DNA of 64,000 nt, taken from the NCBI RefSeq assembly GCF_009914755.1, contig NC_060947.1. One strand, given 5' to 3'. Position 1 is the first letter of the stretch, and each line of letters opens with the position of its first letter. Positions 17,993-21,204 of this stretch are shown here, piece by piece. Below the pieces are notes generated by a model. That model saw only the letters and a program-made list of their open reading frames with translations, did no database searches and had not been told where the DNA came from. The DNA comes from the human T2T-CHM13v2.0 reference genome, Homo sapiens. Made by a program: the position numbers and the translations under genes.

Positions 17993-18760
17993 TTATATAT
18001 TGTAAATCCAATGATAGCTGATCAAATCAGTGCCTCTCCTGTTCCAAACTTGACATGATTGAATTGTCAATAGAAAAGATTTTACAGTAAGAGAAGGAAA
18101 GCTGACAGTGTAAATGTCTGAAAACCCAATGAAGCTCAATATAAAATAGAACAATGAGTTAGGATATCATTTTATAATTTCCAATGGGGAAAAAAAGTGT
18201 TTAGTGAATCACAGCTGAAATTGGGGGTGATCACAGGGAGGGGGAAGCAGGAATGAAAAGCCAGCTAACTTGCATTATAATTTTTGAGAAATCTGAAATG
18301 CAAATTTGCAGATGCAAATTTTAGGAATTATGCATCATAGTCACTGAGTTGTTTATTTACAGAAATGGTTCAAATACTCTCCATCTCTTTCCTCCTCCAT
18401 ACACATAGTTTTTAGTGATAATACCCAGTTGCTGGGGAGAAATAAGCCTATCTTTCCCCAGGAGTCCTGCTGACTTCTAGTAAGTGGCTTGGGAACAGAT
18501 CTTGTAGAACTTATCCTTGCATTCTTAAAGTCAATCAGTAGAGCACTAGTTTCATTTAAAAGATCCCTAGAAGGAGTCAGGTTTGTTTTTGTTTTTGTTT
18601 TTGTTTGAAGCTGCAGAACTTTCTCAGATATATACATCTTGCTTCACATGTGGCCAACCACACTTCCCTTAGGAAAACTAAAAAAACTAAAAAAACTTAA
18701 AAAGTTGTACTCCTTAAAACTTGAACTCCTGCCAATTTTTCAAGAGACCTGATTTGTCTG
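17993..18760 (+). repeat. Long inverted repeat, left arm (unique sequence)
   Basis: Reverse complement of 20444-21204; 17993-18685 pairs with 20512-21204 without gaps (position sum 39197), 3 mismatches. Confidence 0.99.
18298..18319 (+). promoter_or_regulatory. Tandem POU octamer motifs (ATGCAAAT x2), candidate enhancer core
   Basis: ATGCAAAT at 18298-18305 and 18312-18319; mirror copy at 20878-20899; function not shown. Confidence 0.35.
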
Positions 18761-19160
18761 TTTGCAAATATAAGAGCATGGTACTTATTTGTATGTTGAG
18801 AAGCATATGACATCCCATAGGGAGAGACCAGGCTGTGAACTGATAAGAGAATGCTGTTTCATTTAAAAGCAGACAGAGCCTTGTTTGCATGACGTTCTTG
18901 CCTCAGTAGTTGTTCTAAATGCATGGGACCTGATTAAGGGAGAATTAGCTTCTGAGAGATGCTTGGTTTCTGAGTTTTCATCTTGAAAACTATATTCTGA
19001 GGTTGTTGGAGCATATTTTTGGAGACATCTTTAAATATAAATGAAATTCAGCATTATTCTCCTCCCTGTGGAGGTGGCACATTACACCACTGACCATCCT
19101 CTCTCTCTCCTTCTGTGATGTGCTCTTCTCCCAGGAAGCTTCTCCAATATTGCACTTTTT

Positions 19161-19466
19161 ATTGTATTTATTTATTTTTTGAGATGGGATCTCCTTCTGT
19201 CACCCAGGCTGCAGGGCATTGGTACAATCATAGCTCACTGCAGCCCTTACCTCTTAGGCTCAAGCAGTCCTCCCACCTCAGCCTTCCAAGTAGCTGGGAC
19301 TACAGCTGAACGTGCCACCATGCCTGGCTAGTAAAAAAAACATTTTTATAAAGACCAGGTCTCACTTTGTCACCCAGGCTGGTCTCAAACTCCTGGTCTC
19401 AAGGGATCCTCCTGCCTTGGTCTCCCAAAGTGCTAGGGTGACAGGTGTGAGCAACTGCACCTGACC
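19161..19466 (-). mobile_element. Alu SINE (AluJ-like) in the inverted-repeat spacer
   Basis: Diverged reverse Alu; TSD aatattgc(a/t)cttttt. Confidence 0.93.
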
Positions 19467-19944
19467 TAATATTGCTCTTTTTTTGAAGCTTATCAAAACT
19501 TGTTCTTGATGGCTTGTTCTTCGTCTCATTCAACCAACTTCATTAATCTCTTGTTCTGACAGTGGAGTTCTTATAAAGCTCAATCAATTGCTCTCAATTT
19601 ATTATCATGGCTACCCTTTACTAAGTGCTTTTTACAAGCCAAAGATTGTGCTGTTCAAATTACATGTATTATTTCATTTAATGCTCACAGAATCTCTATA
19701 AAAATCAGAGAGAAGAAAAACAGGGCCAAGAATACTCTAGATTATTGGTTAACACCCAATTTTGCTGGACAGGGAAAAGAGTAGGAGCCAACAAAAAAAA
19801 TGGAAAAGTAGTGATCAGAAAGGAAGGAGGGGAACAAGGAAGAGCAAGATCCTGGAAGTCAAAGAAGTTGATGTGACACCCACCATGAACTACACTCTCC
19901 AATCTATATATCTCCACCCTCAGCTTATTGCACATGCACTGTAC

Positions 19945-20080
19945 TAAAGGTGCTGTAGGTGGGTTTGGGGCATCATTGACCCTCTGAAATGTGATGCAAA
20001 ATTTCATGCATCTACATGCATACATTTTCTGGGGCATGAGTTCACAGGTTTAATTAGGGACCCATAAACAAAACAAAGGT
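19945..20080 (+). mobile_element. MER117-like hAT-Charlie fragment
   Basis: ctgaaat..gatgcaaaattt...cattttctgggg...gacccataaacaaaacaaagg resembles recalled consensus. Confidence 0.45.
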
Positions 20081-20443
20081 GTATCTTCAGGCTCTTGCCT
20101 TCAGTTTTCCATTGCACAGTTTCCATTGTACCCCGAAAGTTGACATGTCTAAAACTTCATTTAACATCTATTTTTGTATCACCTCGCTGCAAACTGGTTA
20201 CTGATCTCACCTCTGTCCACTTTTTGCTAGTATAATACCATTATTCTCCTCCAAGCCATCCTCTGTTTTCCCCCATATATCTAGTACATGACCATTGCCT
20301 CTAGGATTTATCCCTCCTCTCTTCTTCCCTTCTTACTTTTTTTACCACCTTCTCTTGGGACCTTTTCTTCTAGCGTGTAGACTTTTGAGGTTGTTCTTAG
20401 CCAGCATCCTTGCTTGCTAACCCTCTTTGTATTACAGTGATGC

Positions 20444-21204
20444 CAGACAAATCAGGTATCCTGAAAAATTGGCAGGAGTTCTTCAAGTTTTAAGGGGTAC
20501 AGCTTTTTTAGTTTTTTAGTTTTCCTAAGGGAAGTGTGGTTGGCCACATGTGAAGCAAGATGTATATATCTGAGAAAGTTCTGCAGCTTCAAACAAAAAC
20601 AAAAACAAAAACAAACCTGACTCCTTCTAGGGATCTTTTAAATGAAACTAGTGCTCTACTGATTGACTTTAAGAATGCAAGGATAAGTTCTACAAGATTT
20701 GTTCCCAAGCCACTTACTAGAAGTCAGCAGGACTCCTGGGGAAAGATAGGCTTATTTCTCCCCAGCAACTGGGTATTATCACTAAAAACTATGTGTATGG
20801 AGGAGGAAAGAGATGGAGAGTATTTGAACCATTTCTGTAAATAAACAACTCAGTGACTATGATGCATAATTCCTAAAATTTGCATCTGCAAATTTGCATT
20901 TCAGATTTCTCAAAAATTATAATGCAAGTTAGCTGGCTTTTCATTCCTGCTTCCCCCTCCCTGTGATCACCCCCAATTTCAGCTGTGATTCACTAAACAC
21001 TTTTTTTCCCCATTGGAAATTATAAAATGATATCCTAGCTCATTGTTTTATTTTATATTGAGCTTCATTGGGTTTTCAGACATTTACACTGTCAGCTTTC
21101 CTTCTCTTACTGTAAAATCTTTTCTATTGACAATTCAATCATGTCAAGTTTGGAACAGGAGAGGCACTGATTTGATCAGCTATCATTGGATTTACAATAT
21201 ATAA
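20444..21204 (-). repeat. Long inverted repeat, right arm
   Basis: Reverse complement of 17993-18760; the ORF track shows the same 94-aa ORF in both arms with one S/F difference. Confidence 0.99.

What the first reader, a model, noticed from the sequence alone, without database searches (positions are those of the whole stretch)
18686..20511. Sharp identity step between outer and inner parts of the arms points to ongoing homogenisation of an older duplication
Seen: the innermost ~75 bp (18686-18760 vs 20444-20511) are still alignable. They carry 4 substitutions, a 3-bp indel (aacttgaactcc vs aacttgaagaactcc) and a different copy number of the CTAAAAAA unit. The adjacent 693 bp has 3 differences, and even its (GTTTTT)n microsatellite and A7 run are the same length in both arms. 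Inference: the duplication is older than 99.6% identity implies. The outer block is being kept identical by gene conversion or recurrent inversion, with tracts stopping at the A-rich indel near 18686. This would be concerted evolution on a miniature palindrome.
Basis: partly seen in the sequence, partly recalled or inferred. Interest (0 to 1): 0.7.

Follow-up and report, generated by a model that had tools for sequence, protein, structure and literature searches.

The report
Small inverted repeat in GPC3 intron
A 768-base stretch inside an intron of the human X gene GPC3 is repeated head-to-head 1.7 kb away and is nearly identical except at its inner end, likely because the two old copies have been overwriting each other by recombination, a known process seen here in an unusually small and apparently gene-free example.

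Summary
Arms 17993-18760 and 20444-21204: the outer 693 bp differ at 3 sites; the inner ~70 bp carry 4 substitutions, a 3-bp indel and a 10-bp A-tract difference. The step is significant if changes are independent (scan p 0.0007-0.011), not if the clustered ones count as 3 events (p 0.09-0.20). Best reading (0.6): an older inverted duplication homogenised by arm-to-arm conversion and occasional spacer inversion, decaying at an edge. Support: 2 of 2 chrX repeats known to invert in humans and apes show the same edge step; edge decay is a published signature of gene conversion; and a putative human-chimp inversion in GPC3 from a 2005 list maps, by recalled offsets, to 19913-21204, ending at the arm's outer edge. 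Against: no ape sequence could be aligned; that list has many false positives; 99.6% also fits a duplication of human-chimp age without conversion; no human inversion is catalogued here; arms are GC-poor. 'Ongoing' and 'tracts stop at the A-tract' are unproven. A small new member of a known kind, without evident function.

The parts
17993..18685 (+). left arm, outer block (693 bp, 3 differences from the right arm)
18686..18760 (+). left arm, inner diverged block (A-tract, imperfect 16-bp tandem at 18700-18731, 4 substitutions, 3-bp indel)
18761..20443 (.). spacer, 1683 bp, the segment that would flip by recombination between the arms
19152..19465 (-). Alu inside the spacer, with a near-intact target-site duplication
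   Evidence: hub mask; (SRP-like matches); family name from the Alu-like pattern, recalled
19602..19703 (-). MIR-like SINE fragment in the spacer
   Evidence: profile built from copies in nearby chrX DNA, E 5e-7; the name MIR is recalled
20444..20511 (-). right arm, inner diverged block (68 bp)
20512..21204 (-). right arm, outer block (693 bp)
19913..21204 (.). inferred place of the putative human-chimp inversion hg17 chrX:132676327-132677618 (right arm plus 531 bp of spacer)
   Evidence: table rows; mapping with recalled assembly offsets
17988..17993 (+). 6-bp word TGGCAT at the outer left junction, also present reversed at 20440-20445 across the inner right junction: possible template-switch microhomology
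   Evidence: p 0.015 alone, 0.06 over four junction models
17656..17977 (-). Alu ending 15 bp outside the left arm; not part of the repeat
   Evidence: hub mask

Best explanation
This is a 768-bp inverted repeat with a 1.7-kb spacer in a GPC3 intron whose arms are 99.6% identical over the outer 693 bp and differ at six places in the inner 70 bp, likely because it is an older duplication whose arms have been homogenised by arm-to-arm recombination that works poorly next to the edge. Shown: the anatomy and the step. Inferred: (1) origin by one replication template-switch event that copied the arm in reverse, possibly flipping the spacer (6-bp microhomology, weak); (2) an age before the human-chimp split, with the inner block (6.9% substitutions, 95% CI 1.9-16.7%) as the remnant clock, roughly ape to Old World monkey age; (3) fold-back pairing of the arms giving conversion at about 5e-6 per base per generation (CI 1.7e-6 to 2.4e-5) and rare crossovers that invert the spacer, one of them probably between human and chimp; (4) the inner block escapes because tracts need homology at both ends and the A-tract indel adds a barrier, and it travels with the spacer when it flips. 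No function is needed or seen.
For: Step p 0.0007-0.011 with independent changes. 2 of 2 control repeats, matched by arm and spacer size to HsInv0403 and HsInv0393, which show both orientations in humans and apes (PMC3961182, passages), have a near-perfect core with diverged edges: 10 changes in the first 38 and 8 in the last ~210 of 4330 columns; 10 in the first 64 of 4723 (step p 3e-4 each). Raised paralogue divergence at block edges is the published signature of conversion decay (PMC2588116, passages). Toy simulation: pattern probability 0.099, 0.035, 0.0007, 0.169, 0.028 for five old-plus-conversion settings against 0.0003-0.002 for young without conversion. Junction mutagenesis in human rearrangements is about 2 changes in 15 kb (PMC4352052, passage), far below 6 in 70 bp. 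PMC1270012 Tables S1/S6 list an inverted human-chimp alignment in GPC3 (1292 vs 1285 bp, 98.99%, 1% repeats) that maps to 19913-21204 with one recalled offset and 19909-21200 with the other, with 1.9% repeat cover: chimp holds arm sequence joined to the spacer's right end, reported in the opposite orientation. Arm-to-arm 0.43% is below the 1.0% human-chimp figure of that row.
Against: No non-human primate sequence and no human haplotypes could be aligned. With 3 complex inner events the step is not significant (p 0.087-0.20); three inner differences sit in an imperfect 16-bp tandem (13/16 unit match on the left) and may be non-independent. 3 of 693 fits free divergence since the human-chimp split (P 0.08-0.17). 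Only 11 of 60 BAC-checked calls of the 2005 list were supported, the mapping rests on recalled offsets, and the row also fits a single-arm chimp. Only one edge is diverged, and no fainter homology extends past either end. Arms are GC-poor (35.5% vs 42.0% flanks, p 0.0014) with no CpG, the reverse of large X palindromes (46.3 vs 41.2%). No inversion row at this place in PMC10150506 Table S1 or the 612-region catalogue of PMC13629690 (hg38 place recalled). One conversion setting (c 1e-4, no barrier) fitted no better than the young model.
Confidence: 0.6

Rival explanations
1. Young, human-lineage event: one template-switch rearrangement inverted the spacer and duplicated the arm (chimp keeps one arm); the inner cluster was made at birth by error-prone synthesis beside the junction. 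No homogenisation needed.
For: 3 of 693 fits 6 My or less. One event would explain the duplication, the sharp ends and the inverted chimp alignment that covers the right arm. Inversions with a flanking duplication are a described human pattern (PMC5829575, passage). No human inversion polymorphism catalogued.
Against: Needs 6 changes in 70 bp; reported junction mutagenesis is about 2 per 15 kb; P of 4 or more substitutions in 58 sites at 0.84-1.0% is 0.0015-0.003. The junction pair this model needs shows only 3-bp microhomology, while the 6-bp one points to the inner right junction, which the chimp alignment spans, as the derived one (weak).
Confidence: 0.2
2. Duplication shared by great apes (about 7-15 My) that has diverged freely; the inner block is a local mutation hotspot driven by slippage in the A-tract and the 16-bp tandem, with substitutions clustering near indels (the last is recalled knowledge).
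For: Both indels lie in slippage-prone sequence; two substitutions and the 3-bp indel all fall in the 16-bp tandem; merged-event step p 0.087-0.20; P(3 or fewer of 693) at 0.84-1.0% is 0.08-0.17; no GC gain.
Against: Becomes unlikely quickly with age (P 5e-13 at human-rhesus divergence); the 18743/18746 pair lies outside the repeats; control repeats show the same edge step.
Confidence: 0.17
3. The inner block is a separate older element (for example terminal inverted repeats of a DNA transposon) that happens to abut a young duplication.
For: It would give two ages without conversion.
Against: The block has only its two matches in the genome search, no match in about 260 kb of nearby DNA, and is exactly in register with the outer block.
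Confidence: 0.03

Closest known systems
Small chrX inversion-mediating inverted repeats HsInv0403 and HsInv0393 (PMC3961182)
   Same: Near-identical inverted arms around a few-kb spacer, near-perfect core with diverged edges, orientation differences among apes (here only a putative chimp call).
   Different: Arms are 4.3 and 4.7 kb against 0.77 kb; they are polymorphic in humans, this one is in neither catalogue searched; core identity is higher there.
Large X-chromosome palindromes (PMC8327919, PMC8981503)
   Same: Inverted arms above 99% identity in the core, proposed arm-to-arm conversion, spacer inversions between species, change concentrated near the centre.
   Different: Arms here are a tenth of the 8-kb cut-off, hold no annotated exon, are GC-poor, and imply a conversion rate about 9 times lower (4.9e-6 vs 4.5e-5).
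Edge decay of duplicated blocks under interlocus gene conversion (PMC2588116, Drosophila)
   Same: High identity in the body with raised divergence at an edge.
   Different: There the age was shown with orthologues and both edges often decay; here one edge, non-coding, age not shown.
F8 int1h repeats and the FLNA-EMD repeat (recalled; the primary papers were not held or not read)
   Same: X-linked inverted repeats, int1h about 1 kb, reported as homogenised by conversion across primates or mammals.
   Different: Recalled only, not tested; int1h copies lie about 140 kb apart and their inversion breaks a gene, whereas a flip here would only turn intronic DNA.

Membership tests
Large X-chromosome palindromes (PMC8327919 definition) | arms longer than 8 kb | tested here: not met
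   768/761 bp; definition
Large X-chromosome palindromes (PMC8327919 definition) | arm-to-arm identity above 99% | tested here: inconclusive
   99.6% over the outer 693 bp, 97.3% over the whole arm with gaps
Large X-chromosome palindromes (PMC8327919 definition) | raised GC in arms (GC-biased conversion; typical, not defining) | tested here: not met
   35.5% vs 42.0% in flanks; weak test, since under 20% of the GC excess is put down to recent conversion
Inversions mediated by inverted repeats (NAHR) | inverted repeats above 90% identity at both ends of the segment | tested here: met
   criterion
Inversions mediated by inverted repeats (NAHR) | both orientations seen in humans | tested here: inconclusive
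   no row at this place in PMC10150506 Table S1 (41 genomes) or PMC13629690 Table S1; PMC12350169 supplement has no match but is cut; raw haplotypes not available
Inversions mediated by inverted repeats (NAHR) | orientation differs between species with both arms present | tested here: inconclusive
   putative human-chimp inversion row maps onto the repeat but comes from a draft assembly with many false calls and does not give the arm number
Concerted evolution by interlocus gene conversion | raised paralogue divergence at block edges | tested here: met
   inner edge only; p 0.0007-0.011, 0.087-0.20 if 3 complex events
Concerted evolution by interlocus gene conversion | paralogues closer than orthologues although the duplication predates speciation | not testable with these tools
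   no primate genomes held; indirect 0.43% vs 1.0%, P 0.08
Concerted evolution by interlocus gene conversion | alleles shared between the arms in population haplotypes | not testable with these tools
   only one human assembly held

The most novel reading that the evidence does not exclude
A gene-free, unique-sequence inverted repeat of under 800 bp has been kept at 99.6% identity by arm-to-arm conversion since before the ape-Old World monkey split and has flipped its spacer between human and chimp: a miniature palindrome a tenth of the size surveyed so far, marking an uncounted class of sub-kilobase repeats that would set the lower length limit for long-lived concerted evolution in primates.
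Probability: 0.3. Interest if true: 0.4.

Novelty: new member of a known kind. Interest (0 to 1): 0.24.

Why it matters
If confirmed it is a clean, selection-free test case for how short a homology can be and still sustain arm-to-arm conversion for tens of millions of years, a size range that the X-palindrome surveys (arms over 8 kb) and segmental-duplication tracks (1 kb) leave out. It could also act as a rare rearrangement substrate inside GPC3 (not tested). It reveals no new mechanism and no function.

Tried and rejected
Fainter homology past the arm ends, also with the left Alu skipped: none above shuffles. A third genomic copy as outgroup: none. Ancient repeats crossing a junction, to tell which arm is ancestral: no hit in about 260 kb of nearby DNA; a MIR-like profile hit none of five junction models, only the spacer and two places near 22.6-23.0 kb: inconclusive. 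Structured RNA: 11 Rfam matches at E up to 1, all within the two Alus and all below gathering score. Coding: a 94-aa ATG frame in each arm, not pursued; the hub table lists no exon in the window. GC-biased conversion signature: absent. Literature on this repeat: full-text searches with GPC3 plus inversion terms gave no paper on it; a search for GPC3 coordinates to anchor the liftover gave two unrelated listings that I did not open. Ape catalogues that may bear on the age could not be seen: supplements of PMC10028934 not held, of PMC12058530 unreadable, three papers not held; PMC2603318 tabulates only 49 retrotransposon-mediated inversions, supplement not opened.

Full report
Observation. The window holds one long unique-sequence inverted repeat, arms 17993-18760 and 20444-21204 around a 1683-bp spacer, inside a GPC3 intron (hub table). 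The outer 693 bp align without gaps and differ at 3 sites, all transitions; the inner 75/68 bp differ by 4 substitutions (18705, 18711, 18743, 18746), a 3-bp indel and a 10-bp A-tract difference, with a fifth substitution in one of two equal-scoring alignments. The genome search finds only these two copies (lower bounds). In 200 kb of neighbouring chrX the only inverted pair of 100 bp or more, 90% or more and within 20 kb was one of 123 bp at 93%, so the repeat itself is uncommon locally.

Is the step real? A scan test over all breakpoints gives p = 0.011 for substitutions only, 0.0007 with both indels, 0.0016 without the A-tract and 0.011 with near events merged. But the left inner block holds an imperfect 16-bp tandem (13/16 unit match) that contains two of the substitutions and the 3-bp indel; if the inner changes are three complex events, p is 0.087-0.20. 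The step is there, resting on few events. Both arm ends are sharp: no fainter homology continues inward or outward, also with the left Alu skipped.

What the outer identity can and cannot say. 3 of 693 is 0.43% (CI 0.09-1.26%). At human-chimp divergence (0.84% from PMC8981503, passage; 1.0% from the row below) 5.8-7 differences are expected and 3 or fewer has P 0.17-0.08, so the outer block alone does not require conversion; at human-rhesus divergence (5.4%) P is 5e-13. The equal microsatellite and A7 lengths add little for a few million years (inference). The age argument rests on the inner block: 4 of 58 sites, 6.9% (CI 1.9-16.7%), which has P 0.0015-0.003 at human-chimp divergence and 0.38 at human-rhesus divergence.

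Positive controls. From the chrX rows of PMC10150506 Table S1 (first 30 of 85 hits seen) I took two small inversions whose arm and spacer sizes match HsInv0403 and HsInv0393 of PMC3961182 Table 1; both show two orientations in humans and in apes (passages). 2 of 2 have the same profile: 21 changes in 4330 columns, 10 in the first 38 and 8 in the last ~210; 12 in 4723, 10 in the first 64 (step p 3e-4 each, the floor of 3000 shuffles). Part of such edges can be chance extension of the alignment, and I had no negative control of proven young duplications. PMC2588116 (abstract and passages) describes raised divergence at block edges as the mark of conversion failing near non-homologous flanks. So the step is the ordinary look of old, recombining repeats.

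Toy simulation (760 bp, 1.5 million generations, 200-bp tracts confined to homology, 1500 runs; parameters are my choice). The chance of 4 or more differences in a terminal 70 bp with 4 or fewer elsewhere was 0.099, 0.035 and 0.0007 for conversion rates 1e-5, 3e-5 and 1e-4, 0.169 and 0.028 with an indel barrier, and 0.0003-0.002 for a young copy without conversion. This assumes independent mutations. An edge effect alone can give the step; the A-tract barrier helps but is not needed. Junction mutagenesis in human template-switch rearrangements, about 2 changes in 15 kb (PMC4352052, passage), is too weak to give 6 in 70 bp.

Chimp evidence. PMC1270012 (abstract, sections 6, 12, 18, passages, supplement rows) lists a putative human-chimp inversion within GPC3: hg17 chrX:132676327-132677618, 1292 bp against 1285 bp in chimp, 98.99% match, 1% repeats. 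With assembly offsets that I recall (not from a call) it lands at window 19913-21204 or 4 bases lower; its end meets the outer edge of the right arm and its repeat cover there is 1.9%, against 12-32% for placements on the left arm or the whole spacer. Three readings: chimp has both arms with the spacer inverted and a draft gap; chimp has both arms and the draft mis-joined them (only 11 of 60 BAC-checked calls were supported); or chimp has one arm and the human state arose by inversion with duplication. Two of the three need both arms in chimp (inference). A 6-bp word shared by the outer left and inner right junctions (p 0.015, 0.06 over four models) hints that these are the derived junctions of a template-switch origin; the chimp alignment spans the inner right one, which weakly favours an origin before the split. 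A search for old repeats crossing the junctions was inconclusive.

Against ongoing activity. No row at this place in PMC10150506 Table S1 (T2T rows jump from 118.5 to 133.5 Mb) or in the 612-region catalogue of PMC13629690 (abstract, sections 4 and 13, supplement search at the recalled hg38 place); the PMC12350169 supplement gave no match but is cut. Arms are GC-poor and lack CpG (2% of 768-bp windows here have none), unlike large X palindromes. The implied conversion rate, 2u/d with u = 1.06e-8, is 4.9e-6 (CI 1.7e-6 to 2.4e-5), about a ninth of that in large X palindromes.

Verdict. Observation confirmed; interpretation likely but unproven. Old duplication with conversion and rare spacer inversion 0.6; young inversion-duplication with junction errors 0.2; ape-age duplication with a local hotspot 0.17; other 0.03. 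It works like the small chrX inversion repeats and, in miniature, like X palindromes (PMC8327919, passages and section 7), but fails the 8-kb definition of the latter. No exon, no RNA family above threshold, no function seen. Searches found no paper on this repeat; its only trace found in print is the 2005 table row. Ape supplements that could settle the age were not readable. Other papers seen: PMC5829575, PMC2603318, PMC4576756 (passages), PMC11794170 (abstract). Interest 0.24.

Noticed in passing
window 17993-21204: Because the repeat lies in a transcribed intron, the GPC3 pre-mRNA could fold into a near-perfect 700-bp non-Alu duplex with a 1.7-kb loop, a possible ADAR substrate (inference; no RNA data seen).
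   Followed up: no
window 17993-18760 and 20444-21204: The arms have no CpG in 768 bp and 35.5% GC; about 2% of 768-bp windows here lack CpG.
   Followed up: partly
window 18353-18637 (-) and 20560-20844 (+): A 94-aa ATG frame in each arm, differing by one residue; probably chance.
   Followed up: no
window 17656-17992: The Alu ends 15 bp from the left arm and its target-site duplication is hard to read (about 11 of 15 bases match), unlike the spacer Alu's; the rearrangement and the insertion may share a site.
   Followed up: partly
window 22648-22994: Two MIR-like fragments in opposite orientation, seen as a weak 93-bp inverted pair at 67%.
   Followed up: no
window 21988-22036: A 49-bp imperfect self-complementary stretch with a 13-bp tandem unit.
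   Followed up: no
L023/L024 and L025/L026 (chrX 74.58 and 100.05 Mb): Both known inversion repeats have diverged 40-200-bp edges around cores with 0-3 differences in about 4 kb; edge steps may be a cheap single-genome flag for old toggling repeats.
   Followed up: partly
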